A stretch of 23,009 nt of DNA. It comes from a virus. Below, piece by piece: positions 1-23,009 of this stretch. The stretch's first letter is position 1. Each line of letters starts with the position of its first letter. Under the pieces are notes generated by a model that did no database searches, was not told where the DNA came from, and saw only the letters and a list, made by a program, of their open reading frames with translations. The DNA lies in the UHGV virus genome UHGV-0387053. One strand, 5' to 3'. The translations under genes were made by a program, and so were the position numbers.

Positions 1-1
1 T

Positions 2-277
2 TGCCAGCACCTTGAGCTGCGTAAACGTGCAGGGGAAATCGCCTGGTATCGATTCGAGGGTATCAAGCTGCGGTTAGCTGACAACACGTTCTATACGCCA
101 GATTTCGCTGTGATGCTCGCCACCGGAGAGATGGAACTGCACGAAGTGAAAGGTTTCTGGACCGACGACGCCAGGGTGAAAACCAAAGTCGCCGCAGATC
201 AGTATCCGTTCCGAATCATCGGGGTAACGGTTAAGCCAAAGAAAGCAGGTGGTGGCTGGAACATCGAAGAGTTCTGA
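2..277 (+). CDS. Phage protein, C-terminal fragment (start lies outside the window); possible PD-(D/E)XK-type nuclease fold
   Basis: Open frame from position 2 to TGA at 275-277 with no internal stop. Translation ends ...FYTPDFAVMLATGEMELHEVKGFWTDDARVKTKVAADQYPFRIIGVTVKPKKAGGGWNIEEF; the PDF ... EVK spacing resembles a PD-(D/E)xK motif. Family assignment is from memory and unverified. Confidence 0.5.
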   Translation, partial: CQHLELRKRAGEIAWYRFEGIKLRLADNTFYTPDFAVMLATGEMELHEVKGFWTDDARVKTKVAADQYPFRIIGVTVKPKKAGGGWNIEEF

Positions 278-338
278 ATCGACGATCTTTTTAGTTATCA
301 ATGTAATCAATAAGTTATGTGGATAAGCGAGGGTAAAG

Positions 339-1085
339 ATGGAAAGTAATATCAAAGGGTTAGTTGCCGCCGGGCATGAGATGGCTTCGGAACTGAAAGC
401 AGAATGTGGTGCCGTTGATATGCGCAGTGTGGCAAAGCTGATCAGCGATTTGGCAACGCAACTGGAAGTGCAACTGGTGCGTGCTAATGCGCTGGCCGAA
501 GACCACCAGAGAGCGATTGAGTCAATTAAGCAGGCTGATTCGGCTGTTAAGTTGGCACACGAGAAGTTTTCGGCGCTGGCGGCGGAGAATGCGGGGCTTA
601 AGGCCTTCAAAACCGCCGTTTATCAGCAGATGGGCGTCGGATGTGATGCTCCTGAATTCTCCATTACGACAGGTTTGAGTAACTTACGTCGTTTTGCTGA
701 CACACTCCACGCCATTGAACGTGAGTTCTTTACCAAAGAGCTACCTGATGAAGAGCACGAAGGCGAAACATTCAATGAATGTCCACTTAGCTGGGGAATG
801 AGCGTCGAACAGTACGTTTCCGAGTTTCGCAAATGCCTTGCTGAAATTCGTTCGGAAGCACGCAACGAGGGGATTAACTATACCGCCAGCCGTCTTGCTG
901 CTGCTTTCAACCACGGATTTATCAATAAGTCTTTACGTGAAGTTTTCGACGTTACGCGCATGATTCTGTCAGCGAAAGAAGAGTTGGCTAATGAACCGCA
1001 CCCGATTGATGGCCTGTCCGGTGAATATGCGGAGAAATCCCTTGAAGAATGGGCGGAACAGATTCGCAAAGGAGCTGACAAGTGA
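339..1085 (+). CDS. Hypothetical phage protein, helical/coiled-coil-rich N-terminal half
   Basis: 248-aa ORF; GAGGGT 4 nt upstream of ATG 339; stop TGA 1083-1085 overlaps the next start. No motif recognised with confidence. Confidence 0.65.
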   Translation: MESNIKGLVAAGHEMASELKAECGAVDMRSVAKLISDLATQLEVQLVRANALAEDHQRAIESIKQADSAVKLAHEKFSALAAENAGLKAFKTAVYQQMGVGCDAPEFSITTGLSNLRRFADTLHAIEREFFTKELPDEEHEGETFNECPLSWGMSVEQYVSEFRKCLAEIRSEARNEGINYTASRLAAAFNHGFINKSLREVFDVTRMILSAKEELANEPHPIDGLSGEYAEKSLEEWAEQIRKGADK

Positions 1086-1492
1086 AGAAGATGATTTTTG
1101 TGGCGGCATTGCTGACCATTACCCAACAGGCGCAGGCTTCAGCAGTTATTGTGGCATCTACCGCCGCGACCACGGCTGCTGTAGCTGCTGCGAACTCTGC
1201 GAATATCGCAAACCAACAGTCACAGCGTGCTGCCAATGCATCAGCCAGCGTTCACCCAATCGCCATTAAGACCGGCAAGAAAAATATAGGTTTCATAACA
1301 TGCGGCAAACGTTCTGACGAGGCTGTAGGTTCACTTGGATGTACGGTATATGGGGGTAGTGAGAATAGAGAAATTCCATGGAAAACGTGGCCCGGATATG
1401 TTCTCGGCTCGAAGCTCCCTGCCAGCTATGAAGTAAACGCCGTATCGTTTGATCACTATAACGGCGTGGCAACGGTCTATTTTGCATATTGA
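1082..1492 (+). CDS. Putative secreted protein with signal peptide
   Basis: GTG start at 1082 with AAGGAG 7 nt upstream; overlaps the previous stop. N-terminus MKKMIFVAALLTITQQAQA looks like a Sec signal peptide, followed by an Ala/Thr-rich segment. Confidence 0.6.
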   Translation: MKKMIFVAALLTITQQAQASAVIVASTAATTAAVAAANSANIANQQSQRAANASASVHPIAIKTGKKNIGFITCGKRSDEAVGSLGCTVYGGSENREIPWKTWPGYVLGSKLPASYEVNAVSFDHYNGVATVYFAY

Positions 1493-1500
1493 GGCTCCGC

Positions 1501-2136
1501 ATGAAATTCTCCAAATTTTCTGAGTTGGTGAATCGTATTTTGTCCAACAACCACAGCCATCGTCGCGATATGGATGTAACGATCGTTGTTCATTCGCCTG
1601 GCAGCATTGGTTCAACACCCTCAGTTGAGGTTCAGTCAATTCACGCTGGTTTTGATTGGGATTCCGGGAAAGTGCTGATTTTCCCAGCACAGCCACTGAC
1701 CACGCTAACACCAGAACAGATTACTGATATCACGGATAGTGTGCGCAAAGGTCAGTCTTGGCACGCATATCAGGAATACAAGAAGCATAAAGAGCAGTTG
1801 GAAAAATTATCGATTGAACTTGATGCCGCAAAACAGCGCATAGCAGAACTGAAAGCCGAACCTGTAAGCCAAACTTACAAGTTGAACCAGATATCGGGCA
1901 ACTCTCCGGTAACTACGGATGGTTGGATAAGCTGTAGTGAGCGAATGCCGGATACCAAAACAGCCGTTCTTGTTGCCAGGGAGTTTGACAGGAAAGGTGA
2001 CTGGCGAATGAAATGGGCGACTTACATCCCGGGGCATCCTGACGCTAATGATGGGTGGGTAGTACCTGGTGCGTCGTGGATACCATCACACTGGATGCCG
2101 CTACCAGAACCGCCGCAGGAGGTTAACCGTGGCTAA
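1501..2136 (+). CDS. DUF551-like phage protein
   Basis: ATG 1501 with GAGG 6 nt upstream (the ORF track's TTG 1489 start is rejected). C-terminal Trp/Pro-rich segment DGWISCSERMPD...WIPSHWMPLPEPP matches my memory of DUF551. Confidence 0.65.
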   Translation: MKFSKFSELVNRILSNNHSHRRDMDVTIVVHSPGSIGSTPSVEVQSIHAGFDWDSGKVLIFPAQPLTTLTPEQITDITDSVRKGQSWHAYQEYKKHKEQLEKLSIELDAAKQRIAELKAEPVSQTYKLNQISGNSPVTTDGWISCSERMPDTKTAVLVAREFDRKGDWRMKWATYIPGHPDANDGWVVPGASWIPSHWMPLPEPPQEVNRG

Positions 2137-2410
2137 CCTGCAACTAGCCGTCAAAGGTGAATACTTCGATGCCATGATTCGAGGAGAGAAAACGGAAGAG
2201 TATCGCCTGTGTAATGACTATTGGAATAAGCGAATTATGTTCCGGGAGTATGACCGCCTGATTATCACAAAGGGATATCCGAAGCGCGACGACTCCAGCC
2301 GCAAAATAGACGTCCAGTATGGCGGATATGAAATCAAGACAATCACACATCCTCACTTCGGCGATAAACCGGTAAAGGTGTTCGCGTTAAAGGTGAATAT
2401 TGATGGCTAA
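2129..2410 (+). CDS. ASCH-like (PUA-fold) small protein
   Basis: GTG 2129 preceded by AGGAGG at 2117-2122. N-terminus LQLAVKGEYFDAMIRGEKTEEYRL fits the ASCH pattern (hydrophobic strand, YFD, G-x-KT-x-E-x-R). Confidence 0.55.
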   Translation: MANLQLAVKGEYFDAMIRGEKTEEYRLCNDYWNKRIMFREYDRLIITKGYPKRDDSSRKIDVQYGGYEIKTITHPHFGDKPVKVFALKVNIDG

Positions 2411-2741
2411 ATCAGCAGCAGAGCGCAAAGCCGCTCAGAGAGCCAGACAAGCTGAATCCGGTGTGCGTAAGCTGGAAATTGTGCTTGATGCTCAGGAAAT
2501 TGAAATGCTGGAGCGTAACTGTGCCACGCGTCGCCCCGGGCGTGTGCCTTACGAATTTGGTGAGTATATTGCGTTACTTATCCGCCAGGATGATGCTCGC
2601 GTGCACGGGCGTATAAAATCGATCAGCAGAAAACGTTGCGGTAAGTGCGGCGAGATAGTTCCTGTGAATTCATGCCCGTGTAATGGTGACTCGCAATGCT
2701 GGGTGACCAAAGGCTGGCATGAAACGAAATTAATAGTGTGA
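2403..2741 (+). CDS. Small putative DNA-binding protein: RHH-like N-terminal region plus C-terminal Cys-rich zinc-ribbon-like motif
   Basis: ATG 2403 overlaps the previous stop by 8 nt. Residues KLEIVLDAQEIEMLER...YEFGEYIALLIRQ fit a strand-helix-helix pattern; C-terminus has CGKCGEIVPVNSCPCNGDSQC. Stop TGA 2739-2741 lies inside the palindrome GTGACATGTCAC. Confidence 0.55.
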   Translation: MAKSAAERKAAQRARQAESGVRKLEIVLDAQEIEMLERNCATRRPGRVPYEFGEYIALLIRQDDARVHGRIKSISRKRCGKCGEIVPVNSCPCNGDSQCWVTKGWHETKLIV

Positions 2742-2749
2742 CATGTCAC
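2738..2749. promoter_or_regulatory. 12-bp perfect palindrome GTGACATGTCAC (copy 1), candidate operator or recombination site
   Basis: Read directly from sequence; an identical 12-mer recurs at 22760-22771. Overlaps the stop codon of the 2403-2741 gene and lies about 110 bp upstream of terminase small subunit. Confidence 0.5.
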
Positions 2750-2790
2750 GAGTAGATTATGCATGATGAATTTGATGGGTTTTGAATACT

Positions 2791-2816
2791 GCCGCCAACT
2801 ATGGCGGCTTTATTTT
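2791..2816 (+). terminator. Intrinsic-terminator-like hairpin plus T-tract in the leader upstream of terminase small subunit
   Basis: GCCGCC-aactat-GGCGGC followed by TTTATTTT. Position resembles a lambda tR'-type read-through terminator, but that role is inference. Confidence 0.45.
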
Positions 2817-2822
2817 GCATGG

Positions 2823-2852
2823 TACTATTACCACAACGGTAACTATTACCAC
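2823..2852. repeat. Two direct copies of ACTATTACCAC 18 bp apart, between the hairpin and the terminase small subunit start
   Basis: 11-mer at 2824-2834 and 2842-2852, seen in sequence. Could be terminase or regulator recognition repeats; function unknown. Confidence 0.4.
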
Positions 2853-2859
2853 GGTGGTT

Positions 2860-3456
2860 ATGATGCCTGCTGAACCTAAAACCTATAAACGCAAATCAAC
2901 GCAATTTAAGCCACTAACAGCAATGCAGGAGGCTTATTGCCAGTCATACATCAAAACGCCTGAAAACCAGACTCAGGCAGCGATTAACGCAGGATTCTCC
3001 CCAAATACAGCGGCAGTTAAAGCCAGTGTCATGATGCGCGATGAACGCATTCAAAAACGGATTGCCGAGTTGATGGAGGAGCGCAACAAACGAATGCGCG
3101 TCAGTGCTGATTACGTTCTCATGCGCCTGGTGGAGATCGACCAGATGGACGTGATCGACATCCTCAACGACGATGGGAGCCTTAAACCAATCCGTGAGTG
3201 GCCGAAAATCTGGCGCACTACGCTTAGTGGCTTTGATCTGTCATCGACCATCATGAACATGAACGAGGATTCGATAGAGACAATCCTCAAAAAAATTAAA
3301 TGGCCTGACAAGGTGAAGAACCTTGAGCTGATTGGTAAGCATGTTGATGTCAACGCGTTCAAAGAACGTCTGGATGTTAATGTGAATGTGACAATTGCTG
3401 ATCGCATAGCAGCAGCCAGGAAGCGACTCAAAGAACGTCAGGATGGTAATCAGTGA
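2860..3456 (+). CDS. Terminase small subunit
   Basis: ATG at 2860 or 2863 after GGTGG; the TTG 2782 start runs through the hairpin and is rejected. Segment YCQSYIKTPENQTQAAINAGFSPNTAAVKASVMMRDERIQKRI resembles terminase small-subunit families; sits immediately upstream of, and overlaps, the large subunit. Confidence 0.75.
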   Translation: MMPAEPKTYKRKSTQFKPLTAMQEAYCQSYIKTPENQTQAAINAGFSPNTAAVKASVMMRDERIQKRIAELMEERNKRMRVSADYVLMRLVEIDQMDVIDILNDDGSLKPIREWPKIWRTTLSGFDLSSTIMNMNEDSIETILKKIKWPDKVKNLELIGKHVDVNAFKERLDVNVNVTIADRIAAARKRLKERQDGNQ

Positions 3457-4922
3457 CAGATACAGCGTTATCTCCTGAAGAGCAGTTGATCGAGGATATT
3501 GCAGGGTTCACTCACGATCCGCTTGGCTATGCCCTCTATGCGTTCCCGTGGGGGGAAGAGGGGACTGAACTGGCACATGCCACCGGCCCACGTCAGTGGC
3601 AGGCTGATGCGTTCCGAGAGATACGTGATCACCTGCAGAATCCAGAGACGCGCTATCAGCCGCTTATGCTGGCACGCGCTTCTGGTCACGGTATTGGTAA
3701 ATCCGCATTCATCTCAATGCTGATCAACTGGGGCATGTCCACTTGCGAGGATTGTAAGGTCGTGGTGACCGCCAACACCGACAACCAGCTACGAACGAAG
3801 ACCTGGCCGGAAATTATCAAGTGGTCGAACCTTGCTATCACGAAAGACTGGTTTACCTGTACCGCTACCGCGATGTACAGCAATGATCCTGGACACGACA
3901 AGCGGTGGCGAGCTGACGCAATACCCTGGTCTGAGCACAACACTGAGGCATTCGCCGGACTACACAACGAGCGCAAACGCATCATCGTGGTATTCGATGA
4001 AGCGTCGAACATTGCGGATCTGGTGTGGGAAGTTGCCGAGGGTGCGCTAACGGACGAAGACACTGAGATTATCTGGGTGGCGTTCGGAAACCCGACGCGT
4101 AATACCGGACGTTTCCGCGAATGTTTCCGCAAATATAAACACCGCTGGAAAACTGCGCAGATTGACAGCCGGACGGTGGAAGGCACCAACAAACAGCAGT
4201 TGCAGAAATGGGTTGATGACTACGGGGAAGACAGCGACTTCGTTAAAATCCGTGTGCGCGGCATATTCCCTGATGCATCTGAATTGCAGTTTATCCCTAC
4301 CGGTCTTACTGACGAGGCAATGAAACGGGTGGTAACTGCTGCGCAGGTGGCACATGCTCCGGTGATAATCGGCGTTGACCCTGCATACTCCGGTGTTGAT
4401 GACGCGGTGATATACCTGCGGCAGGGGCTGCACAGTAAGGTGCTGTGGACCGGCAACAAGACCACTGACGATCTGATTATGGCAAAGCGTATCGCTGACT
4501 TTGAAGACCAGTATCAGGCTGACGCGGTGTTCATCGACTTCGGTTACGGTACCGGGCTGAAGTCAATCGGTGACGGTTGGGGGCGCACATGGCAACTTGT
4601 TCCGTTCGGTGGCGCGTCTACTGACCCGCAGATGCTCAACAAGCGTGGGGAGATGTTCAACTCATGCAAGACATGGCTGAGGCTGGGCGGCATGCTGGAT
4701 GACCAGGAAACTGCAGACGACCTGTCGGCGGCAGAGTACAAAGTTCGCGTGGACGGTAAAATCGTTATCGAACCGAAGGAAGATATCAAAGAACGACTTG
4801 GGCGTTCACCTGGTAAAGGCGATGCGCTACTGCTGACGTTTGCGTTCCCGGTAGCCAAGAAAACTAATGACCCACGGCAGCAGCAGGGCAGGGCTATAAC
4901 AGACTATGACCCATTTGAATGA
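3453..4922 (+). CDS. Terminase large subunit (ATPase/nuclease)
   Basis: 489 aa; GTG start overlaps the small-subunit stop. Walker A-like GHGIGKS and Walker B-like IIVVFDEAS are visible; size and position are typical. Confidence 0.85.
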   Translation: MTDTALSPEEQLIEDIAGFTHDPLGYALYAFPWGEEGTELAHATGPRQWQADAFREIRDHLQNPETRYQPLMLARASGHGIGKSAFISMLINWGMSTCEDCKVVVTANTDNQLRTKTWPEIIKWSNLAITKDWFTCTATAMYSNDPGHDKRWRADAIPWSEHNTEAFAGLHNERKRIIVVFDEASNIADLVWEVAEGALTDEDTEIIWVAFGNPTRNTGRFRECFRKYKHRWKTAQIDSRTVEGTNKQQLQKWVDDYGEDSDFVKIRVRGIFPDASELQFIPTGLTDEAMKRVVTAAQVAHAPVIIGVDPAYSGVDDAVIYLRQGLHSKVLWTGNKTTDDLIMAKRIADFEDQYQADAVFIDFGYGTGLKSIGDGWGRTWQLVPFGGASTDPQMLNKRGEMFNSCKTWLRLGGMLDDQETADDLSAAEYKVRVDGKIVIEPKEDIKERLGRSPGKGDALLLTFAFPVAKKTNDPRQQQGRAITDYDPFE

Positions 4923-4925
4923 TTT

Positions 4926-5774
4926 TTACTTTTGTGTTTTTGATTTTCTTTGATAGGTGGAATTTAAACCACCATTTATATTTACTAGAGGATTGTTCAA
5001 TAATGTACTGATTTCTGGATTGTTAATTCCAGTAACGCCAAATTTCTTTACGGACTCATTAAGGTCTTGTAATGATTTTAGACCTACAAACCCATTAGCA
5101 ATTGTATTATTTGTTGCCAAAGGAATGTTTTCCTTATAGGACTCATATTCGTTTTTTAAATTTTTGTGAGCTTTTTCTAGATTTTCTAGTTTAGATGTTG
5201 TTTCATCAATAACCTTAGATAATTCTAAAATACGAGCTTGTGCTGCGCGCAGTTCTGTCTCCCTCTCTTTCAATTCAGATGTGAGTTGTCCCATTCTGTC
5301 TTTTGAAAGAATTATTTCCTCTTTCATGTCTTGAATGTTTTTTTCAGCGCCTGTTTTTACTTTTTCGTAAGTAATGTCTTTTTTAGCCAGCAATCTCTGT
5401 AGCCGTGTTTCACGTTGTATTTTTCTTGCCTTCCGGTGGTTTTCGATTGAGTCATTATTATCAAGAGGTTTTGCTTGCCATACGTTAATGATATTGTTTA
5501 CCCATGGTAATAGGCAGCAGATAGTAATTACAGATAAGCATGGATAAAACATAACAGTTTTCCATGTGCTGTTATCTGAGATGTATGAAATTTTATCTAT
5601 TATATTTGATTTGCTAAAAAACAGATAAAGAAGTGATTTCCAGTTGAAGGCGCACCAGGACATAACAAAAGCACCAAGCACAGGGTTTTTGGCTCTATGC
5701 ACGGCAGTATTGGCAGTAGATAAAAACAGCTCTTTGAACGATTCGAACATACTAATTACCTTAAAGTTTTTCAT
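4926..5774 (-). CDS. AT-rich cargo gene: hypothetical membrane protein with two predicted TM helices, a central coiled coil and an Asn-rich C-terminus
   Basis: Minus-strand ATG at 5774 with AAAGG 7 nt upstream; the longer track ORF to 6032 is rejected because it crosses the terminator and tRNA. Hydrophobic segments PVLGAFVMSWCAFNWKSLLYLFF and VMFYPCLSVITICCLLPWV; heptad-like charged region KERETELRAAQARILELSKVIDETTSKLENLEKAH. Hand counts of sample lines give about 30% GC versus about 55% in flanking phage genes. Convergent with terminase, 3 bp from its stop. Confidence 0.7.
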   Translation of the reverse strand: MKNFKVISMFESFKELFLSTANTAVHRAKNPVLGAFVMSWCAFNWKSLLYLFFSKSNIIDKISYISDNSTWKTVMFYPCLSVITICCLLPWVNNIINVWQAKPLDNNDSIENHRKARKIQRETRLQRLLAKKDITYEKVKTGAEKNIQDMKEEIILSKDRMGQLTSELKERETELRAAQARILELSKVIDETTSKLENLEKAHKNLKNEYESYKENIPLATNNTIANGFVGLKSLQDLNESVKKFGVTGINNPEISTLLNNPLVNINGGLNSTYQRKSKTQK

Positions 5775-5998: not shown

Positions 5999-6075
5999 TG
6001 GCGTGGCATGAAGGATTCGAACCTCCGACCAACCGCTTAGAAGGCGGTTGCTCTGTCCAACTGAGCTAATGCCAC
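5999..6075 (-). tRNA. tRNA-Arg (anticodon UCU)
   Basis: Minus-strand sequence GTGGCATTAGCTCAGTTGGACAGAGCAACCGCCTTCTAAGCGGTTGGTCGGAGGTTCGAATCCTTCATGCCACGCCA folds by hand into a cloverleaf: 7-bp acceptor stem, D arm GCTC/GAGC, anticodon stem ACCGC/GCGGT with loop CTTCTAA (U33, anticodon TCT, A37), T arm GGAGG-TTCGAAT-CCTTC, discriminator G and CCA end. Confidence 0.85.
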
Positions 6076-15719: not shown

Positions 15720-18466
15720 TGCCTGTTGTTCCTACTACATCCGGACGCCAGGTGCAAAGTCGTGGTGTGCAAACCGGTGGTTTTCAGATCTTCGATGTTC
15801 CTCAAGCAGGTCAGGTGCTGGCGAATGTCGCAGATCAGTATGCGGTGGCATATGGTGAAGCCAGGCAGAAAGCGAATGTTGCTATGGCCCAGGAGGCGTT
15901 ACTGCAATTTAACCAATTTGCAGATGACCAGATTAACAACCCTGAAAGTGGGCTGATTTCTAAACAGGGTAAAAACGCTCTTGGTCAGAGTGACGCTGTT
16001 ATGAAAAATATGCAGGAAAGGGCTCAGGCATTATTAGGCTCAATTCCTGAAAGTGAGGAAAGGAATAAATTATCCTTTCAACTCCAGCAGTCTATGCAGT
16101 CTTATTACAATCAGGCACGTCGATATGAAGTTGGGCAGTTTCAGCAATTCCAAGATCAAACGTATTTGTCAGGAAATGCATTGGCTGTCACTCAGTCTGC
16201 GGGGCTATATAGCGATAACCAAGCATTTGTCGATTTAGCCAAGCAGCGATTTGAATCTATTGATCAATACGCTGATGCGCATGGGCTTCCTGATGAGTGG
16301 CGTGTTCAGCAGAAAACTCAGCTCAAGGAACAAATGGGGCAGCAAGCATGGATAGGAAATATCGCTCAAAAATACAACGAGTTTCTTCAGGTTAATGGAG
16401 AGCCAGGGGATCTTGATGGTGTGAGTCGTGCAATATCACATGGTAATTCATTGGATGCTCGTGGTTTACGTAATAATAACCCTGGTAATATTGAAGCGAG
16501 CAAATCTAACCCGTGGGAAGGTCAGATCGGTAGCGATGGACGTTTTGCAACGTTTGCTACCCCTGAGCATGGAATCCGCGCGTTGGGTAAAAATATGTTG
16601 TCTTACCAGCGTCAAGGCTATGACACCGTTAGCGAGATTGTTAATCGCTATGCTCCGGCTAGTGATGGTAATAATACTGATGCTTATATTAGGGAATTGT
16701 GTGGTGAGCTTGGTGTTGGGGAGAATGATCAGCTTGATATCTCTAACCCAAAGACACTAGCTGCTTTATGTGCTGGGATTATTAAACACGAAAATGGCAG
16801 TATGCCTTATAGCACCGAACAGCTTGAAACTGGTATCTCGGCAGCCCTTGGTCTAACTAACCTTGATTCACCTAAGCGTTATACGGGCAATGCGGCATTT
16901 GATGCTATGAGCCCTCAAATGCAAATACAGGCATTGAGGCAGGCTAATGAGCTGAGAAATCAGTACCGCCAGCAGTATGCGGACCAGCTTAGCACCGTAG
17001 TTAAAGATGCATATTCAGCCCTTGATGAAGGATTGAAACCTGAGAAGTTACCTTCTGAGGACGATTTTATCCGGGCCAATGGTCCGCGCATTGGCGCTAT
17101 GAAGTGGAAGGATATGCAGGCGCAGATACAATATGGAGGTGTCATTGGTGCCGCTAAAGACCTCACTCCAGAAGGACGACAAGACATTCTTGAACGTTTA
17201 CGTCCACAGGATCCAAACGCTCCTGGATTTGCAGCTAACCAGCAACGCTGGGAGAAAATGCAGGCCAAATTTAAAGAGATGGATAGGGAGTGGGAGATTC
17301 AGCAGGGAAGAAACAGGTTCGTGTCTTCAATGCAAAATAACTTCCCGCTGGACCCGAACGACAAAAACAATCAGGCAGCGGTAGACCGTTATTTCGCGCA
17401 GGATATCGCGCCTTCGTTTTCCATATCTGATCCGCAGAGCATCAATACACTGGTCACCGTCACAACTAAAAGCGGCATGATACCAACTCAGGTTAAAACA
17501 ATGCTTAACAGTGGAGCAACATCAAGAGATCCTGCGCTGGTTGTCCCGATGGCAAAATTCTACGGTCAGTTATTCGATAATAATCCGGCGGCAGCGGCAA
17601 CACTTGATAAAAGTACGATGGCATTTTACGGCAAGGTTTACGATTATTCCCGCGCTGGCGTGCCGGAGGATAAGGCTGTTGATATGGCTTACAGCCAGGT
17701 GTTCCAACAGGATGACCGAATGAAACAGATGCTTTCCACTGCCATGCGAGACAAAAAATATGTCGCGGCGAGGGCAACTGCTGCACAAAATAACGCCAGC
17801 AGTCTGACTTCCTTTGGTTCGTGGTCTCCGGATATTACCGATCCAGGAAAATCAAATGCGGCCTATCAGCGAGATTACCAGACAATTTACGATGCTAACT
17901 TTGTACAGACAGGTGGCGATGCAGAACAGGCTGAGAAAATGACCAATGCCATGATCAGAACCACCTGGGGAGTTTCTACGGTTAATGGCAAAGCAGAGGT
18001 TATGAAGTATGCACCTGAGGCATTGTACGGAGTAAATAATGGTGCTGGTAACTGGATACAGGGGCAGTGGGAGCAGGAAAAACGCGAGCTTAAATCAAAA
18101 TCCTTTGGCGGTCCTCGCAGTGATACGGACTTAATACTTGTTTCTGATGGCCTTACGGCAAGGGATAGGAGTTATGCTGTTATGGTTTTACAGCCTGACG
18201 CAAACGGAGCGATAGAACCGAGAAATTATATTGGAGAAAATGGTCTCCCTGTTCGTTTCAAGCCGGATCAGCTGACATCTCCAATGTACAGGCAAACCAT
18301 TCAGTTCCAGCAACAACGTGTTGATGAGGCTAGAGTGCGGAGAGAAGGCAATCCGCTGCCGCAGTTCAGCAATAAAGATGGATATACTCCTCCAGATCTG
18401 ACCAAACCATTCGGTTATGGTTCAGCCAATTACCTTCCGAGCAATATATACGCAGGGGGCAAATAA
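15719..18466 (+). CDS. Large internal virion/ejection protein, gp15-position, with a conserved-looking internal motif region
   Basis: 915 aa, coupled start TGATG. Residues about 240-330 read GLRNNNPGNIEASKSNPWEGQIGSDGRFATFATPEHGIRALGKNMLSYQRQGYDTVSEIVNRYAP, which looks like a compact enzymatic or binding domain; its function is not assigned. Confidence 0.7.
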   Translation: MPVVPTTSGRQVQSRGVQTGGFQIFDVPQAGQVLANVADQYAVAYGEARQKANVAMAQEALLQFNQFADDQINNPESGLISKQGKNALGQSDAVMKNMQERAQALLGSIPESEERNKLSFQLQQSMQSYYNQARRYEVGQFQQFQDQTYLSGNALAVTQSAGLYSDNQAFVDLAKQRFESIDQYADAHGLPDEWRVQQKTQLKEQMGQQAWIGNIAQKYNEFLQVNGEPGDLDGVSRAISHGNSLDARGLRNNNPGNIEASKSNPWEGQIGSDGRFATFATPEHGIRALGKNMLSYQRQGYDTVSEIVNRYAPASDGNNTDAYIRELCGELGVGENDQLDISNPKTLAALCAGIIKHENGSMPYSTEQLETGISAALGLTNLDSPKRYTGNAAFDAMSPQMQIQALRQANELRNQYRQQYADQLSTVVKDAYSALDEGLKPEKLPSEDDFIRANGPRIGAMKWKDMQAQIQYGGVIGAAKDLTPEGRQDILERLRPQDPNAPGFAANQQRWEKMQAKFKEMDREWEIQQGRNRFVSSMQNNFPLDPNDKNNQAAVDRYFAQDIAPSFSISDPQSINTLVTVTTKSGMIPTQVKTMLNSGATSRDPALVVPMAKFYGQLFDNNPAAAATLDKSTMAFYGKVYDYSRAGVPEDKAVDMAYSQVFQQDDRMKQMLSTAMRDKKYVAARATAAQNNASSLTSFGSWSPDITDPGKSNAAYQRDYQTIYDANFVQTGGDAEQAEKMTNAMIRTTWGVSTVNGKAEVMKYAPEALYGVNNGAGNWIQGQWEQEKRELKSKSFGGPRSDTDLILVSDGLTARDRSYAVMVLQPDANGAIEPRNYIGENGLPVRFKPDQLTSPMYRQTIQFQQQRVDEARVRREGNPLPQFSNKDGYTPPDLTKPFGYGSANYLPSNIYAGGK

Positions 18467-21400
18467 TGCCGATATATGAACAGGATCCTAAAGAGTTGCT
18501 TGGCGAGGATATTCAGCAAATAGCAGCACCTGATGACAGTAATTTCTATATGGAAACACCTTCTTTGCTTTCTGCTGTGAACCCATTTACCAGTGATCAA
18601 CGCGTTCAAAGGTCTAGACAAGCAGCATTTCGTATAGATAACACGCTGGGTAGCTTTATTGCCAGTGCTCCTTTCAGTCAGTTTGACAGGGTTGAAGGAT
18701 ATAACCCATTTGATAACGATGCAGCAGATATTAAAGGCTATGAAGATTTTGCAGATTCGTTTATCAACTCCGGTTCGCATGAAGAAACAATGGCAATTAA
18801 ACATCGAATCGATAAGCAAAGAACAGATAGAGAATATCTATCTGAAATGGGTGGTGCTGGTACTATTTCAAGCTTAGCAATGGGAATGATAGACCCGGTT
18901 AATGTGGCTGCAATGTTTATCCCTGTAGGGGCGGTAGCGCGTGGAGGAAGTATTGCTGAGACGGCAGGGCGTTTTGCCCTGGCGAATGCTGCTGGTGGGG
19001 GAGTATCAGAAGCCGCATTACAGGCCACTCAGGAAGCTCGCTCACCGATGGAGAGCGTATCGAACGTTGTTGTTGATGCTCTCGTTGGTGGGATCCTTGG
19101 TGCTGGTGCACAGCTACTTGCTGGACCTAGCGCGCGCGAGGCAGTGGTTAACTCAGTAGGTAATCATTTGCGAGGTATGGATTCTCCTCAAAGCATTGGT
19201 GCAGCTCAGGTTTTCAATACCACACTCGATCAGGAACAGCTCGCTGGACTTGGACTTGCTAACAAAACGTTGAGTGTCACTCCTGCTGGCCGCTTGGCTC
19301 AATCACCATCTCTTGTCTCCCGTCAGATTAACCAGCAGCTTGCCGAAAATAACTATTTCTTCGCCAAAAATGATGAGGGGTTGGCTACGTTTACGGCAGT
19401 CGAGACTAAGATTAAGCAATACGACGCCATGCTTTATAAGCAGATGGAAGCCACTCGTGATGCTTACCAGCAGTACAGCAAATCTGTTAGCGCCCGCGGC
19501 GTGAAGAGGATGAACTTTATTGATTTCAATGAAGCTGTTGGCATGGCTATGCGCCGTGGTGATCAGAGTGATATTCCTGAGGTTTCACAAGCAGCCGCCA
19601 GAATCCGCCCCATTTTCGAGACCACAAAAGCCCGTATGCAGGAACTGGGGATCCTTCCTGAGGATATCGATGTCGTGACGGCGAAAAGTTATCTTCCCCG
19701 CATTTATAAGTTCGATAAGATACTTTCCGACCGCACTGAATTCAGAGGGCGAATTGCCAACTGGATACAAGGGATTAGTGCCAAAGGTGCTGACAAAGCA
19801 GGTCAGCGAATTGAAAGGATAAATTCATTGCTAAAAACTGCAGAGGAATCGGCACCGCGCGCTGATGCTCTCGCTAGTGAAATCGCTGAAGCGGAGAAAT
19901 GGTCTGGTAAAAAAATTCTACTCATGGAAGAACTGGATAAACGAAATAAGCTTATATCTCAGGAGACTGACACACAGGCGCGTCTTACAAGAATAGAAAA
20001 AGAGTTGGCCGAGACTTCATCAGAAAAACTTCAGGCAAGAATGATGAAAGAAAGCTCTGACCTTAAAACACGCCTTGATGATATAGCGCAGGCAAAGAGT
20101 GAGCTTCCTGTCTATCAGCGCCATATGGAGTTGCTGGATAATCCACGGAAATATCGTTCTGAGCTTCGCCGACTGCAAAAACGGGCAAATTCAACCACAA
20201 GGCTGAATGCAAGCCGCGAACGAGCACTGAAGCAGATGGAGCCTCTATCCCGAGAGGAAGCAGAGGACGCTGCTGACGAGATCGTGAATAAAATAATAGG
20301 CGCACCTTCCGGGCTTGTACCAGCCGATATTATCCCAGAGAGACTCGTTGGTCGGGCTGGTTTCACTAAAAGCAGAACGCTGCTTATTCCTGATGAGCGT
20401 ATAGAAGATTTTCTTGAATCAGATGTTAACTACATCATGGAAAGTTATCTCCGGCAGGTGGCACCAGAAATTGAGCTGACTGCGCAGTTTGGCCGTAAAG
20501 ATATGGGGGAGCAAATCCGTCAGGTTAGTGAGGAATATACCCGGCTAATAAAAGAGGCTAAAACACCTAAACGACGTGCAGTTCTTGAGAAGCAACGGGA
20601 GGCTGATATTAGGGATATTACGGCTATGCGTGATCGACTGCTTGGTACTTACGGTGCACCTCAAGATCCACGCAGTTTCTTTGTTCGTGCCGGGCGAGTT
20701 GCTAGGAATATTAACTTCCTCCGTTTGCTTGGTGGAATGACTGTCTCCGCTGCAACTGATCTGATGCGACCGATGATGCAGCATGGCCTGAGAAAATCTC
20801 TCGGACCAATGGTAAGCATGCTTAAAAATATGGACTCAGTGAAAATTGCAACCAGGGATTTGCGAGAAATGGCCGTTGGGCTTGATTATGTCCTGTCTAC
20901 GCGTACAAAGGCTATAGCGGATCTTACTGACCCCTATAGCCGGAGAAGCGCCGCTGAGCGAGGTCTGAACTGGATGACGCAGAAATTCGGTAACTGGACG
21001 CTGATGAATCAGTGGAACAGCGCACTTAAATCATGGTCCGGGATGATAGTGCAGTCGAGGATACTTGACGCGGCTCGCCAAGTTTCTGCTGGTGGCACGC
21101 TCTCCAAAAGTGAAATGCGGAAGATGGCACAGGTCGGCATCAATGAAGATGTTCTGCGCCGAATCGGGGAGCAATTCGGGAAGCACGGAGAGGATATGGA
21201 CGGGCTGTTAACCGGGCATAGTCATCTGTGGGATGACCGTTTCGCTAGAGAGATTTTCCAGTCTGCAGTGCTGAAAGATGTAGACTCAGTGATTGTAACG
21301 CCTGGCGTAGGTGATACACCGCTGTTTTTTAGTAAAGAAGGCTGGAAGATGATCACGCAGTTCAAAACGTTTATCTTCGCACAGCATAACAGGGTGCTAG

Positions 21401-21855
21401 TATCTGGTATCCAGCAGGGCGATGCTGCATTCTATCTTGGTGCGCTTGGCACGATTGCGCTTGGCTCAATGGTCTATATGATGAAACAGAAGTTAAGCGG
21501 TCGCGATATCGACTACAGCTGGAATAACCTTGTGAAAGAGGGGATCGACCGGGGCGGAATGCTTGGCTGGCTCTCTGAGCCGCTGAATACCGTTGAGAAC
21601 ATAAGCGGCGGTAGGTTTGGTCTTGGCGCGATGTTTGGTGCGCCTCCGGTATCAAGGTTTCAGAGTCGTAATGCTATTGGTGCTTTACTTGGTCCTACCT
21701 TTGATCTTGGCGGTGATGCCGCGACGGTTGCGAATGGTGTACTTAACGGAGAATTTGACAGCCAGCAAACCCACGCGGTCCGTAAAATGCTACCTTTTCA
21801 GAACCTGTGGGCGATATCACCGTTACTAAATAAAGTTGAAGAGCAGATGAAATAG
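18466..21855 (+). CDS. Largest internal virion/ejection protein, gp16-position
   Basis: 1129 aa, coupled start TAATG; long helical/coiled-coil regions; last gene of the coupled chain. No lytic transglycosylase motif recognised. Confidence 0.7.
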   Translation: MPIYEQDPKELLGEDIQQIAAPDDSNFYMETPSLLSAVNPFTSDQRVQRSRQAAFRIDNTLGSFIASAPFSQFDRVEGYNPFDNDAADIKGYEDFADSFINSGSHEETMAIKHRIDKQRTDREYLSEMGGAGTISSLAMGMIDPVNVAAMFIPVGAVARGGSIAETAGRFALANAAGGGVSEAALQATQEARSPMESVSNVVVDALVGGILGAGAQLLAGPSAREAVVNSVGNHLRGMDSPQSIGAAQVFNTTLDQEQLAGLGLANKTLSVTPAGRLAQSPSLVSRQINQQLAENNYFFAKNDEGLATFTAVETKIKQYDAMLYKQMEATRDAYQQYSKSVSARGVKRMNFIDFNEAVGMAMRRGDQSDIPEVSQAAARIRPIFETTKARMQELGILPEDIDVVTAKSYLPRIYKFDKILSDRTEFRGRIANWIQGISAKGADKAGQRIERINSLLKTAEESAPRADALASEIAEAEKWSGKKILLMEELDKRNKLISQETDTQARLTRIEKELAETSSEKLQARMMKESSDLKTRLDDIAQAKSELPVYQRHMELLDNPRKYRSELRRLQKRANSTTRLNASRERALKQMEPLSREEAEDAADEIVNKIIGAPSGLVPADIIPERLVGRAGFTKSRTLLIPDERIEDFLESDVNYIMESYLRQVAPEIELTAQFGRKDMGEQIRQVSEEYTRLIKEAKTPKRRAVLEKQREADIRDITAMRDRLLGTYGAPQDPRSFFVRAGRVARNINFLRLLGGMTVSAATDLMRPMMQHGLRKSLGPMVSMLKNMDSVKIATRDLREMAVGLDYVLSTRTKAIADLTDPYSRRSAAERGLNWMTQKFGNWTLMNQWNSALKSWSGMIVQSRILDAARQVSAGGTLSKSEMRKMAQVGINEDVLRRIGEQFGKHGEDMDGLLTGHSHLWDDRFAREIFQSAVLKDVDSVIVTPGVGDTPLFFSKEGWKMITQFKTFIFAQHNRVLVSGIQQGDAAFYLGALGTIALGSMVYMMKQKLSGRDIDYSWNNLVKEGIDRGGMLGWLSEPLNTVENISGGRFGLGAMFGAPPVSRFQSRNAIGALLGPTFDLGGDAATVANGVLNGEFDSQQTHAVRKMLPFQNLWAISPLLNKVEEQMK

Positions 21856-22296
21856 CTATTCACAATTAGTGATGGCGTATGTATCAAATATATTGCCATC
21901 ACTAAATACATACCTATATTCAATCTCTCCGCCAAGGTGAATAAATGCTTTCATTTGCCTGTTGGAGCAAATGCTCGATTTTGAATAATTTCGCATTACA
22001 CTCTTTAATTTATTTTCTAAGGTTACATCACCGTTATAAACTTTTGATAAATAGCTGTTGTTGTAATTAAGATGCGCTACAACTAAAAGTTTGTTTAGTA
22101 TTGCATTTATTGAAACAATAGACATATTATCATTCAATTTTATGGGAAGTGACTTTCCTGCTTCTGATGCAATTTTGTTTGCATGTGCACACATATCCTC
22201 ATTTATTAAATTCTTAAAACATATGTCGTTTGCAAACGAAAAAATTGGTAGGATAAACAAAACGGTAGCTGTAATAGCGTGCATCGGCTTAATCAT
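21856..22296 (-). CDS. AT-rich cargo gene: secreted/periplasmic Cys-containing protein
   Basis: Minus-strand ORF; N-terminus MIKPMHAITATVLFILPIFSFA is signal-peptide-like (an alternative start 12 nt downstream is possible); cysteines spread through the mature part; visibly AT-rich; abuts the gp16-like stop. Confidence 0.6.
   Translation of the reverse strand: MIKPMHAITATVLFILPIFSFANDICFKNLINEDMCAHANKIASEAGKSLPIKLNDNMSIVSINAILNKLLVVAHLNYNNSYLSKVYNGDVTLENKLKSVMRNYSKSSICSNRQMKAFIHLGGEIEYRYVFSDGNIFDTYAITNCE
21866..21905. repeat. 11-bp perfect inverted repeat with 18-nt spacer (TTAGTGATGGC ... GCCATCACTAA)
   Basis: Seen in sequence 11 nt after the gp16-like stop, inside the 3' end of the convergent minus-strand gene. 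Operator-like or hairpin; no U-tract. Confidence 0.4.
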
Positions 22297-22308
22297 TAGG
22301 TGACCTTT

Positions 22309-22758
22309 ATGTTCAAGAAGATGATCAACAGATTAATCGGTGGTAAGGAGGTTAGCAATAAAATTCAACCTCTTATCTTTAAGGATAACTTTTCAGCTTT
22401 TGAGTATGCGTGTAAGTATCTTGACACAAGCCTTTCAGCCAATAAACCAATGCCAGCCATCATCATACCTGGTCCAAGTGGGGAACAGCCAGTTTTGCTA
22501 GATTCTGGAAGACAAAGGGCAATGCTGAAGGTGTGCTCAGCTGATGGTGGATTTTTTGTTATTGCCGATTCATCTTACAGCAAAGGACCAAAGCTGAGGA
22601 TTGGTGATCTTGTTGCTTGGTTGCCTGTGAGTTATGCCGAAGAATTAACGGATAAAATAGAAGATCCTCGCTCCGCTATGGTTGGCTTTATATTGGGAAC
22701 CATTCATCCTGAACTAACATCTACTGGCTGGAAGGGTAAAGAAAGATTTCGCAAGTAG
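22309..22758 (+). CDS. Hypothetical cytoplasmic protein, divergent from the secreted-protein gene
   Basis: ATG 22309 after AGGTGA; 149 aa; AT-rich 5' part, more GC-rich 3' part; stop TAG 22756-22758 is followed directly by the palindrome and a terminator. Confidence 0.55.
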   Translation: MFKKMINRLIGGKEVSNKIQPLIFKDNFSAFEYACKYLDTSLSANKPMPAIIIPGPSGEQPVLLDSGRQRAMLKVCSADGGFFVIADSSYSKGPKLRIGDLVAWLPVSYAEELTDKIEDPRSAMVGFILGTIHPELTSTGWKGKERFRK

Positions 22759-22759
22759 C

Positions 22760-22771
22760 GTGACATGTCAC
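22760..22771. promoter_or_regulatory. 12-bp perfect palindrome GTGACATGTCAC (copy 2)
   Basis: Identical to the 2738-2749 copy; again starts within 2 nt of a stop codon and precedes a hairpin/T-tract. Confidence 0.5.
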
Positions 22772-22796
22772 AGGCCGCTTTCGCGGCCTTGTTTTT
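22772..22796 (+). terminator. Intrinsic terminator (AGGCCGC-tttc-GCGGCCT followed by TGTTTTT)
   Basis: 7-bp GC-rich stem, 4-nt loop and T-tract, seen in sequence immediately after the 22309-22758 gene. Confidence 0.7.
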
Positions 22797-22956
22797 AACG
22801 AATGCCACCGCCACCCGGGCGGGAATCCGCAGAACGCCCACCGCAGCGGGAGCCGTCAGCAGCAGTGTCGCTGTCGTGCTGACAACGACCGGCAAAGGCC
22901 TGAGTTGAAGCTACCAGAGACAACAAAACGAACAGTGCAGCAAATGCTTTTTTCAT
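22795..22956 (-). CDS. Possible small secreted peptide (about 53 aa), GC-rich; low confidence
   Basis: Minus-strand ATG at 22956 giving MKKAFAALFVLLSLVASTQAFAG (signal-peptide-like) then a Gly/Arg/Ser/Asp-rich tail with two Cys. Weak RBS; could be non-coding. Confidence 0.3.
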   Translation of the reverse strand: MKKAFAALFVLLSLVASTQAFAGRCQHDSDTAADGSRCGGRSADSRPGGGGIR

Positions 22957-23009
22957 TGTGAAATTTCCATCTATAAGCCACCTCAATGTGGCGTCAATGA
23001 GTGTAGCAC

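What the first reader, a model, noticed from the sequence alone, without database searches (positions are those of the whole stretch)
1..23009. Mosaic prophage: lambdoid-type accessory genes and a separate terminase pair fused to a T7-like virion module, with no RNA polymerase or tail fibre in view
Gene order 7.3-8-9-10-11-12-13-14-15-16, the C-terminal Gln/Met-rich portal tail, gp7.3-like and gp11-like sequence patterns and an internal terminator after the capsid region all recall T7-group virion modules. Unlike T7, the terminase genes sit upstream of the module rather than after gene 17, and the upstream genes (DUF551-like, ASCH-like, RHH protein, hairpin leader) look lambdoid. The chain of overlapping stop/start codons from 11604 to 21855 suggests host-style coupled expression. 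This could be a temperate or cryptic element with a T7-like particle, worth placing phylogenetically.
Basis: partly seen in the sequence, partly recalled or inferred. Interest (0 to 1): 0.5.

Follow-up and report, generated by a model that had tools for sequence, protein, structure and literature searches.

The report
Ordinary epsilon15/phiV10-type E. coli prophage

Summary
The window is 98-99% identical over most of its length to prophages beside guaA in 117 complete E. coli genomes. It is 97-98% identical over 52-83% of its length to isolated phages (EC.W1-9, phiV10, TL-2011b) of the epsilon15/phiV10 group (genus Uetakevirus).

The "T7-like" reading holds for the portal (Pfam PF12236), adaptor (gp11 fold), nozzle (gp12, profile level), gp13 (same PHROG as T7 gp13), gp14 (Pfam T7_gp14) and gp16 (same PHROG as T7 gp16, plus tblastn hits to Autographiviridae). 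It holds tentatively for gp15. It does not hold for the capsid, which is BPP-1/epsilon15-type with cement and staple proteins. It is unproven for the scaffold and the gp7.3-like protein.

This mix of temperate early genes, an upstream terminase pair, a T7-type tail and core, and no phage RNA polymerase is the normal architecture of the group. Reviews of ejection proteins already describe it. The missing tail fibre is a window-edge effect: relatives carry a tailspike gene about 2.4 kb past the window end.

The one mildly interesting point is the core cassette. Here it is two proteins (915 and 1129 aa), the second a true T7 gp16-family member. In phiV10/epsilon15 it is three proteins. Both cassettes circulate on near-identical chassis. 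Low interest.

The parts
2..277 (+). 3' part of a DUF1064 gene (end of the early/replication region)
   Evidence: Pfam PF06356, 1.2e-5. RefSeq names the homologue in DEC9B DUF1064.
339..2136 (+). Three accessory genes (248 aa; 136 aa with a signal-peptide-like N-terminus; 215 aa with a DUF551 domain). This stretch varies between relatives.
   Evidence: DUF551 PF04448, 1.8e-22. Window 594-2127 does not align to DEC9B.
2129..2410 (+). ASCH-like small gene
   Evidence: Pfam ASCH is the only hit but sub-threshold (E 0.056). RefSeq calls the homologue ASCH.
2400..2741 (+). 113-aa putative transcription regulator with a Cys-rich C-terminus, immediately upstream of the late operon
   Evidence: phrog_536 'transcriptional regulator', 1.2e-53. 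No Pfam hit.
2738..2861 (+). Leader of the late operon: the 12-bp palindrome GTGACATGTCAC (2738-2749) overlapping a promoter-like site, a GC hairpin plus U-run (2791-2808), and two tandem ATTACC-N5-GGTAAT-like sites (2827-2861)
   Evidence: Hairpin fold z = -3.15. epsilon15 annotates the equivalent ATTACC...GGTAAT sites as repressor sites.
2782..3456 (+). Small terminase subunit. The real start is probably the ATG at about 2859-2862.
   Evidence: Pfam Terminase_2 PF03592, 1.4e-29. phrog_51. EC.W1-9 and epsilon15 annotate the shorter form.
3453..4922 (+). Large terminase subunit, not T7 gp19-like
   Evidence: phrog_2, 4.7e-52. RefSeq 'terminase'. No similarity to T7 gp19.
4926..5774 (-). Low-GC (38%) inserted accessory gene (moron): 282-aa protein that by eye has two hydrophobic stretches followed by a long coiled coil, with its own promoter-like site. 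Function unknown.
   Evidence: Composition. phrog_4780, 5.8e-122. Promoter-like site matching 10 of 12 positions at 5804-5776. Only coiled-coil noise in PADLOC and NCBIfam. No phage record matches at DNA level; 18 E. coli genomes hold it in full.
5999..6075 (-). tRNA-Arg (anticodon TCT)
   Evidence: ARAGORN. Rfam tRNA, 70.9 bits.
6503..6709 (+). 68-aa protein before the portal gene (epsilon15 gp3 equivalent). Possible small virion protein. The T7 gp6.7/gp7.3 likeness is weak.
   Evidence: phrog_831, 2.4e-36. phmmer versus T7 gp7.3 E 0.005 in a 15-protein set.
6724..8403 (+). Portal protein of the T7 gp8 family
   Evidence: Pfam PF12236, 1.6e-187. The window portal and T7 gp8 each hit both phrog_332 and phrog_449. 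PDB 8ck0_A, 5.7e-179.
8400..8696 (+). Bbp19-like small head-module protein
   Evidence: Pfam PF25181, 2.8e-17.
8693..9394 (+). 233-aa protein in the scaffold position. Databases call it 'protease/peptidase'. The N-terminus is acidic and Pro-rich low-complexity sequence.
   Evidence: phrog_458, 2.9e-111. No Pfam hit. No significant match to T7 gp9.
9403..10395 (+). Major capsid protein of the epsilon15 gp7 / BPP-1 type
   Evidence: Pfam PF20911, 2.2e-148. PDB 3j4u_A (entry also cited in the epsilon15 record as Bordetella BPP-1) 3.4e-127; 3j40_A (gp7, epsilon15) 2.7e-84.
10447..10884 (+). Bbp16-type capsid cement protein
   Evidence: Pfam PF21190, 2.5e-48.
10886..11230 (+). 114-aa protein of unknown role (epsilon15 gp9 equivalent)
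   Evidence: phrog_590, 1.5e-60.
11247..11270 (+). Internal terminator-like hairpin (GGGGC-UUCG-GCCCC followed by UUUAUU)
   Evidence: Sequence. Fold. The homologous intergenic terminator is annotated in epsilon15. Not called by the consensus scan.
11275..11604 (+). Capsid staple protein (epsilon15 gp10 type)
   Evidence: Pfam PF21628, 1.3e-51. Exactly this gene is missing from phage EC.W1-9.
11601..12209 (+). Tail adaptor with the T7 gp11 fold
   Evidence: AlphaFold model pLDDT 88.5. Foldseek: 8ck1_E 1.9e-16; T7 gp11 7box_M 2.7e-6, TM 0.59; KP32 tail tubular protein A.
12209..14680 (+). Tail nozzle (T7 gp12 / tail tubular protein B type)
   Evidence: PDB 8ck1_A 'Tail Nozzle', 6.5e-217. Family profile hits cyanophage A4 'Tail tubular protein B' at 2.4e-10. 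hhalign versus T7 gp12: E 9.1e-5, probability 59%, collinear region.
14680..15144 (+). gp13-like internal virion/assembly protein
   Evidence: phrog_308, 9.2e-63. T7 gp13 hits the same PHROG at 1.1e-42. Pfam Phage_T7_Gp13 is the only hit but sub-threshold.
15144..15719 (+). gp14-like core/ejection protein
   Evidence: Pfam PF24072 T7_gp14, 4.4e-8, above the cut-off. RefSeq 'virion core protein, T7 gp14 family'.
15719..18466 (+). 915-aa gp15-position ejection protein with an embedded cell-wall hydrolase-like domain (residues about 247-399)
   Evidence: PDB 9vvp_L and endolysin 7q47_A. The N-terminal 516 aa are 44% identical to epsilon15 gp15. The top three Foldseek hits of the model are T7 core/ejectosome entries (7k5c_A 4.9e-4), but TM is only 0.12-0.16. 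hhalign versus T7 gp15 E 0.06.
18466..21855 (+). 1129-aa gp16-family ejection protein lacking the N-terminal lytic domain
   Evidence: phrog_342, 2.9e-235, covering profile positions 192-1227. T7 gp16 hits the same PHROG with 1355 bits. tblastn hits to internal virion proteins of Proteus, Pelagibacter and Mesorhizobium podophages.
21856..22758 (.). Two small accessory genes: 146 aa on the - strand with a signal-peptide-like N-terminus, and 152 aa on the + strand
   Evidence: phrog_8772 and phrog_9944. No Pfam or PADLOC hits.
22760..22789 (+). Second copy of the palindrome GTGACATGTCAC, directly followed by a strong terminator hairpin that ends the late operon
   Evidence: Fold z = -3.33. Same arrangement in phiV10 and epsilon15.

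Best explanation
The window is the late (packaging and virion) region, plus a few early accessory genes, of a temperate short-tailed phage of the epsilon15/phiV10 group (genus Uetakevirus and close unclassified relatives). It may be integrated in an E. coli chromosome or come from a phage genome.

How it works, with the basis of each step:
- Transcription (inferred). Host RNA polymerase transcribes one long late operon. The operon starts at a leader holding a palindrome, a terminator-like hairpin and operator-like sites, and ends at the terminator at 22772-22789.
- Translational coupling (inferred). The one-base stop/start overlaps couple translation of the tail and core genes.
- Packaging (family assignment shown, mechanism inferred). 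A Terminase_2-type small subunit and a non-T7 large subunit package DNA through a T7 gp8-family portal.
- Capsid (shown by family membership). The capsid is built of a BPP-1/epsilon15-type HK97-like protein reinforced by Bbp16 cement and gp10-type staple proteins.
- Tail (shown by homology to solved structures). A gp11-fold adaptor and a gp12-type nozzle form the short tail. Tailspikes encoded just past the window attach to it (seen in relatives).
- Core and ejection (roles inferred by homology to T7). gp13-, gp14-, gp15- and gp16-like proteins form an internal core. On infection they are ejected to build a channel across the cell envelope. The wall-cutting domain sits in the gp15-position protein instead of at the N-terminus of gp16.
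- Cassette variant (shown). This copy carries a two-protein gp15/gp16 cassette in place of the three-protein cassette of phiV10/epsilon15.
For: - Identity to known elements. 117 complete E. coli genomes hold at least 80% of the window at about 98% identity. In DEC9B and AB104 the element lies between guaA-integrase and lysis genes. Isolated phages match at 97-98%: EC.W1-9 83% covered, TL-2011b, phiv142-3, PAS61 and O157 typing phages 9 and 10 at 58-59%, phiV10 52%. The window is collinear with the phiV10 and epsilon15 annotations.
- Families. Portal PF12236, Bbp19, capsid PF20911, Bbp16 and staple PF21628. T7_gp14 and Terminase_2.
- T7 links. PHROGs shared with T7 gp8, gp13 and gp16. Adaptor model matches T7 gp11. 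Nozzle profile matches T7 gp12 and a 'tail tubular protein B'. The gp15-position model has T7 core/ejectosome entries as its top three fold hits. The gp16-like protein hits Autographiviridae internal virion proteins by tblastn.
- Particles form. Phage EC.W1-9, isolated from sewage, carries the same 915 + 1129 aa cassette at 98.4% DNA identity.
- Literature. A review of ejection proteins lists epsilon15 gp14/15/16 homologues in T7 synteny and a T7-like core stack (PMC8954989).
Against: - Direct pairwise BLAST and phmmer against T7 proteins are not significant.
- hhalign of the adaptor alignment against T7 gp11 failed.
- The gp15 link rests on low TM-scores (0.12-0.16) and E 4.9e-4.
- No host flank, integrase or repressor lies in the window, so 'prophage' and 'temperate' rest on relatives.
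- Formal genus membership cannot be computed from a 23-kb piece.
- The leader and antitermination idea and the roles of the operator-like sites are inference only.
Confidence: 0.9

Rival explanations
1. One reading: a novel or unusual chimera in which a T7-group virion module was recently fused to a lambdoid backbone, possibly a cryptic element.
For: Many virion genes are truly T7-related. The early genes are lambdoid in style: DUF551 in the window, and Ea22-like and replication protein P in relatives.
Against: The architecture is shared by a whole established group (epsilon15, phiV10 and many isolates). Divergence from T7 is too deep for pairwise BLAST to detect, so this is ancient shared ancestry and not a recent fusion. 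The capsid, cement and staple proteins are not T7-type. All ORFs are intact and near-identical to those of plaque-forming phages.
Confidence: 0.04
2. This particular copy is a defective prophage remnant whose virion genes are intact but which can no longer be induced.
For: Nothing in the window speaks for it. Regulatory, integration and lysis genes lie outside the window and could be damaged. The DEC9B relative carries two pseudogenes in its accessory region.
Against: All 25 or so genes in the window are full-length. The stop/start coupling is preserved. Identity to active phages is 97-99%.
Confidence: 0.1
3. The T7 resemblance of the tail and core is only the generic fold sharing found in all short-tailed phages and says nothing specific about T7.
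For: The adaptor model also matches SU10, DEV (N4-like) and, very weakly, P22 tail proteins. The review groups epsilon15 ejection proteins partly with P22.
Against: The portal scores 624 bits in the Pfam family that RefSeq also finds in T7 gp8-type proteins. gp13 and gp16 share PHROGs with T7 itself. gp14 passes the curated T7_gp14 cut-off. The P22 match of the adaptor model is non-significant (E 0.8).
Confidence: 0.1

Closest known systems
Escherichia phage EC.W1-9 (PP445227, isolated from sewage, unclassified Caudoviricetes)
   Same: 83% of the window is covered at 97.2% identity. It has the same terminase, portal, capsid, adaptor, nozzle, gp13 and gp14 genes and the same 915 + 1129 aa core cassette at 98.4%.
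   Different: It lacks the staple gene (window 11280-11603), the 282-aa moron and the two small genes at 21856-22758. Its accessory genes before terS differ.
Escherichia phage phiV10 and Salmonella phage epsilon15 (genus Uetakevirus)
   Same: Collinear from terS to gp14. phiV10 is 97-99% identical over window 2742-4852 and 5811-15625. epsilon15 is 75-81% identical over parts of the window. The palindrome plus terminator and the operator-like sites are shared.
   Different: After gp14 they carry three proteins (837/600/824 aa in phiV10). The window has two. Only the N-terminal 500-516 aa of the first protein is shared, at 44% identity. The 1129-aa protein has no counterpart. epsilon15's capsid and cement region does not align at DNA level.
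guaA-adjacent prophages of E. coli DEC9B (NZ_CP074760) and AB104 (NZ_OZ547541)
   Same: DEC9B is 99% identical over window 5811-23009, including the two-protein cassette. AB104 is 97% identical over 2403-15629, including the moron. Both show the full prophage context.
   Different: DEC9B has a Gp49-family gene where the window has the moron. AB104 has the three-protein cassette. The window combines the two patterns.
Phage T7 virion module (genes 8-16)
   Same: Same order portal ... adaptor - nozzle - gp13 - gp14 - gp15 - gp16, with family or fold links for each.
   Different: No RNA polymerase. Terminase lies upstream and is unrelated. The capsid is of another family, with added cement and staple proteins. 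Relatives have a tailspike instead of the gp17 fibre. The wall-cutting domain is in gp15 and not gp16. Sequence identity is below pairwise detection.
Solved virions: Carin-1 phage (PDB 8cjz/8ck0/8ck1), Legionella LME-1 phage (9efk), Bordetella BPP-1 (3j4u)
   Same: These are the closest solved structures for the portal (5.7e-179), nozzle (6.5e-217), adaptor (2.1e-26) and capsid (BPP-1, 3.4e-127).
   Different: They have other hosts. The rest of their genomes was not compared here.

Membership tests
epsilon15/phiV10 group (Uetakevirus and close relatives) | High nucleotide similarity to recognised members (the ICTV genus criterion, from my own knowledge, is about 70% over the whole genome) | tested here: inconclusive
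   phiV10 covers 52% of the window at 98.5%. EC.W1-9 covers 83% at 97.2% but is unclassified. Only 23 kb of the element is available, so the whole-genome value cannot be computed.
epsilon15/phiV10 group (Uetakevirus and close relatives) | Collinear late region: terS-terL-(moron)-gp3-portal-gp5-gp6-capsid-cement-gp9-staple-adaptor-nozzle-gp13-gp14-core proteins | tested here: met
   Gene-for-gene match with the phiV10 and epsilon15 annotations.
epsilon15/phiV10 group (Uetakevirus and close relatives) | epsilon15-type capsid (PF20911) with a gp10-type staple protein (PF21628) | tested here: met
   2.2e-148 and 1.3e-51.
epsilon15/phiV10 group (Uetakevirus and close relatives) | epsilon15-type core proteins gp15, gp16 and gp17 | tested here: not met
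   Only the N-terminal half of gp15 is shared, at 44% identity. The gp16 and gp17 equivalents are replaced by one T7 gp16-family protein. This is a cassette variant, also present in 119 E. coli genomes.
epsilon15/phiV10 group (Uetakevirus and close relatives) | Temperate lifestyle (integrase, repressor), O-antigen tailspike | not testable with these tools
   These genes lie outside the window. They are present in DEC9B and AB104 relatives: integrase beside guaA, and a beta-helix protein downstream.
T7-group (Autographiviridae) virion module | gp8-family portal | tested here: met
   PF12236, 624 bits. Reciprocal PHROG cross-hits with T7 gp8.
T7-group (Autographiviridae) virion module | gp11 adaptor and gp12 nozzle | tested here: met
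   Adaptor: Foldseek hit to T7 gp11 at E 2.7e-6, TM 0.59. Nozzle: hhalign to T7 gp12 at E 9.1e-5, probability 59%, and a profile hit to 'tail tubular protein B' at 2.4e-10. Homology is at fold or profile level only.
T7-group (Autographiviridae) virion module | gp13, gp14 and gp16 internal proteins | tested here: met
   phrog_308 and phrog_342 are shared with T7 gp13 and gp16. PF24072 is above its cut-off. tblastn hits to Autographiviridae gp16-like proteins. The N-terminal lytic domain of gp16 is absent.
T7-group (Autographiviridae) virion module | gp15 internal protein | tested here: inconclusive
   T7 core/ejectosome entries are the top three Foldseek hits (E 4.9e-4), but TM is 0.12-0.16. 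hhalign E 0.06.
T7-group (Autographiviridae) virion module | gp10-family capsid and gp9 scaffold | tested here: not met
   Capsid is PF20911/phrog_212 versus T7 phrog_267, with no cross-hit and no T7 chain among the PDB hits. The scaffold-position protein has no link to gp9.
T7-group (Autographiviridae) virion module | Phage-encoded single-subunit RNA polymerase, gp17 fibre, terminase genes after the fibre gene | tested here: not met
   None in the window. None is annotated in the complete DEC9B prophage, which has a beta-helix tailspike instead. The terminase pair is upstream.

The most novel reading that the evidence does not exclude
Near-identical E. coli prophages (98-99% identical from portal to gp14) carry either a three-protein epsilon15-type core cassette or a two-protein cassette whose second member is a true T7 gp16-family protein. 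The switch point lies at about window 15625, inside the 3' end of the gp14 gene. If both cassettes work on the same portal/adaptor/nozzle/gp13/gp14 chassis, this is a natural swap experiment. It would show that the large ejection proteins of short-tailed phages are an exchangeable module, with the gp14 C-terminus as the adapter piece.
Probability: 0.45. Interest if true: 0.4.

Novelty: already known. Interest (0 to 1): 0.15.

Why it matters
It matters little as a discovery. The element belongs to a well-sampled group of temperate coliphages. Their structure (epsilon15 cryo-EM) and their T7-like ejection-protein synteny are already in the literature.

The practical value is in annotation. Most of these genes are still labelled 'hypothetical protein' or mislabelled ('DUF919 family protein', 'AAA family ATPase', 'peptidase') in RefSeq and GenBank. 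The assignments made here (adaptor, nozzle, gp13-, gp14-, gp15- and gp16-like proteins) could be transferred to several hundred E. coli prophages.

The two alternative core cassettes on one chassis offer a modest handle on how ejection proteins co-evolve with the tail.

Tried and rejected
- **Pairwise comparison with T7.** BLASTP and phmmer of all window virion proteins against T7 gp6.7-gp19 gave nothing significant. The best hit was often the positional counterpart, which is suggestive only.
- **Adaptor versus T7 gp11.** hhalign of a 35-sequence adaptor alignment against T7 gp11 gave probability 0.1%.
- **Adaptor profile versus PDB sequences.** This reached only Carin-1 and LME-1, not T7.
- **NCBIfam at E up to 1.** No useful hits for the adaptor, nozzle, gp13, gp15 or gp16 equivalents.
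- **PADLOC on the moron and accessory genes.** Only weak coiled-coil matches (LmuB, JetC, DruC; E 3e-5 to 4e-3), judged to be composition noise and not defence-system membership.
- **Pfam DUF919 hit of the 1129-aa protein.** It covers 46 residues of coiled coil at 23 bits. I rejected it as meaningful, although RefSeq uses it as the product name.
- **Homologue search for the nozzle.** It returned only relatives at 82% identity or more, so no structure was predicted for the nozzle. The exhaustive representative search was used instead.
- **Literature search for PDB codes 8CK0/8CK1.** Nothing relevant was found. The entry title came from Foldseek.
- **Rfam.** Only the tRNA was found.

Full report
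**What is in the window.** Six-frame ORF listing and translation show a nearly unbroken + strand array. It holds a partial DUF1064 gene and five small accessory genes (2-2741). These are followed by terS and terL (2782-4922) and a low-GC gene on the minus strand (4926-5774, 38% GC). Next comes a tRNA-Arg(TCT) at 5999-6075. Then 14 genes run from 6503 to 21855, and two small genes close the window. Six successive gene junctions from 11604 to 18466 are one-base overlaps, TGATG or TAATG. The observed layout is therefore real.

**Identity of the element.** Megablast finds the window in 117 complete E. coli genomes at 80% coverage or more and about 98% identity. It also finds many isolated phages: EC.W1-9 (83% covered, 97.2%), and TL-2011b, phiv142-3, PAS61, O157 typing phages 9 and 10, ZX5 and phiV10 (52-59% covered, 98%). 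epsilon15 matches more distantly at 75-81%. phiV10 and epsilon15 are the type members of the genus Uetakevirus.

In E. coli DEC9B and AB104 the element is a roughly 40-kb prophage. It runs from guaA and an integrase, through recombination and replication genes, then the region seen here, then a beta-helix tailspike and lysis genes. The tailspike gene begins about 2.4 kb beyond the point matching the window's end. That explains 'no tail fibre in view'. No RNA polymerase gene is annotated anywhere in the complete prophage.

**Testing the T7-like claim gene by gene.**
- Pairwise BLASTP and phmmer against T7 proteins are not significant, so any relationship is distant.
- Portal: Pfam PF12236, E 1.6e-187. 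The window portal and T7 gp8 each hit both phrog_332 and phrog_449.
- Adaptor (202 aa): an AlphaFold model (pLDDT 88.5) matches Carin-1 8ck1_E (1.9e-16), LME-1, T7 gp11 (7box_M, 2.7e-6, TM 0.59) and other tail tubular protein A structures.
- Nozzle (823 aa): PDB 8ck1_A 'Tail Nozzle', 6.5e-217. The family is very large, with 18,286 representative clusters. A 30-sequence profile hits cyanophage A4 'Tail tubular protein B' (2.4e-10) and another 'nozzle' chain. It aligns to T7 gp12 residues 350-466 with E 9.1e-5 and probability 59%.
- gp13 position (154 aa): phrog_308, the same PHROG that T7 gp13 hits. Pfam Phage_T7_Gp13 is the only hit but is sub-threshold.
- gp14 position (191 aa): Pfam T7_gp14 above its cut-off.
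- gp16 position (1129 aa): phrog_342 at 785 bits, covering profile positions 192-1227. T7 gp16 hits the same PHROG at 1355 bits. tblastn also finds internal virion proteins of Proteus, Pelagibacter, Mesorhizobium and Ralstonia podophages. The N-terminal lytic domain of T7 gp16 is missing.
- gp15 position (915 aa): the evidence is weaker. An embedded hydrolase-like domain (247-399) matches an endolysin and the N-terminus of a 1295-aa phage protein (Gp29, 9vvp). The AlphaFold model (pLDDT 77) has T7 core/ejectosome entries as its top three Foldseek hits (4.9e-4, 0.011, 0.016), but with TM-scores of 0.12-0.16. hhalign gives E 0.06 over a collinear stretch.
- Not T7-like: the capsid is PF20911. 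Its closest solved relatives are 3j4u_A (entry cited as Bordetella BPP-1 in the epsilon15 record; 3.4e-127), the Carin-1 capsid 8cjz_Y (4.3e-86) and 3j40_A (gp7, epsilon15; 2.7e-84), with no T7 chain among the hits. The scaffold-position protein and both terminase subunits are also unrelated to T7's.
- Four genes have no T7 counterpart: Bbp19-like, Bbp16 cement, a 114-aa ORF and the staple.
- The 68-aa protein before the portal resembles T7 gp7.3 only weakly.

**Verdict on the interpretation.** The combination is not a new mosaic, however. It is the defining plan of the epsilon15 group. The RefSeq record of epsilon15 already cites T7 tail tubular protein A for its gp11. A review lists epsilon15 homologues of T7 gp14/15/16 in synteny and a T7-like core stack (PMC8954989). 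EC.W1-9, isolated from sewage, carries the same structural genes, so particles form.

**What varies.** Compared with relatives, the window differs in three blocks:
- The accessory genes at 594-2127.
- The moron slot between terL and the tRNA.
- Everything from about 15625 to 22758. phiV10, epsilon15 and AB104 have three core proteins there, while the window, DEC9B, EC.W1-9 and two Klebsiella phages have two.

The first core protein shares only its N-terminal 500-516 residues with epsilon15 gp15 and phiV10 gp18, at 44% identity. The 1129-aa protein has no BLAST counterpart in phiV10 or epsilon15. In complete E. coli genomes, the two-protein cassette occurs in 119 of 5426 and the three-protein cassette in 317. 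The moron and the core cassette assort independently: AB104 has the moron together with the three-protein cassette.

**Mechanism.** Shown by homology to solved or curated families: a T7-type portal-adaptor-nozzle axis, an HK97-like capsid with cement and staple proteins, and a gp13/14/15/16-type internal core. Inferred by analogy with T7 and epsilon15: host-polymerase transcription of a single late operon, translational coupling through the overlaps, and ejection of the core proteins to form a trans-envelope channel, with the wall hydrolase carried by the gp15-position protein.

**Score.** Low interest (0.15) and already known. The only point with some value is the pair of alternative ejection-protein cassettes on one chassis.

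Noticed in passing
window 2738-2749 and 22760-22771: The perfect 12-bp palindrome GTGACATGTCAC occurs exactly twice. One copy overlaps a promoter-like site just before terS. The other lies just after the last late gene, directly followed by a strong terminator hairpin. Two copies also occur in each of phiV10, epsilon15, DEC9B and AB104. Its function is unknown. It could be a regulator binding site bracketing the late operon.
   Followed up: partly
window 2791-2808: A GC hairpin plus U-run (fold z = -3.15) sits between the promoter-like site and the probable terS start. A 113-aa Cys-rich putative regulator gene lies immediately upstream. This resembles a promoter-proximal terminator that needs antitermination, as with lambda Q. 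That is inference only.
   Followed up: no
window 2827-2861, 5778-5794, 6397-6413: ATTACC-N5-GGTAAT-like inverted repeats lie before terS (two in tandem), over the moron's promoter and before the portal operon. There are 5 matches against 0.68 expected. The epsilon15 record annotates the equivalent sites as repressor binding sites.
   Followed up: partly
window 4926-5774 (- strand): A low-GC 282-aa protein, by eye membrane-anchored with a coiled coil, has its own promoter and sits in a variable slot between terL and the tRNA. It is absent from all phage records at DNA level and present in full in 18 E. coli genomes. Relatives carry a Gp49-family gene in this slot. It could be a lysogen-expressed exclusion gene. 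This was not tested.
   Followed up: partly
window 11280-11603 versus L006 (EC.W1-9) 14611-14619: Isolated phage EC.W1-9 lacks precisely the capsid staple gene (epsilon15 gp10 type) while keeping both flanks at 96-98% identity. The staple may therefore be dispensable for a viable particle.
   Followed up: partly
window 9403-10884: The capsid protein is closer to Bordetella phage BPP-1 (3.4e-127) than to epsilon15 gp7 (2.7e-84). The capsid-to-staple region (9358-11593) does not align to epsilon15 at DNA level. The head genes are thus themselves a swapped block within the group.
   Followed up: partly
window 6503-6709 and 15144-15719: The 68-aa pre-portal protein and the gp14-like protein both begin with Met-Cys. 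So does T7 gp6.7 and, from memory, T7 gp14. This may be a shared N-terminal feature of small ejected proteins.
   Followed up: no
L001 32079-35468 and L005 33574-35376 (RefSeq annotations): RefSeq names the gp16-family protein 'DUF919 family protein', from a 46-residue coiled-coil hit, and names a phiV10-type core protein 'AAA family ATPase'. Both names look misleading.
   Followed up: partly
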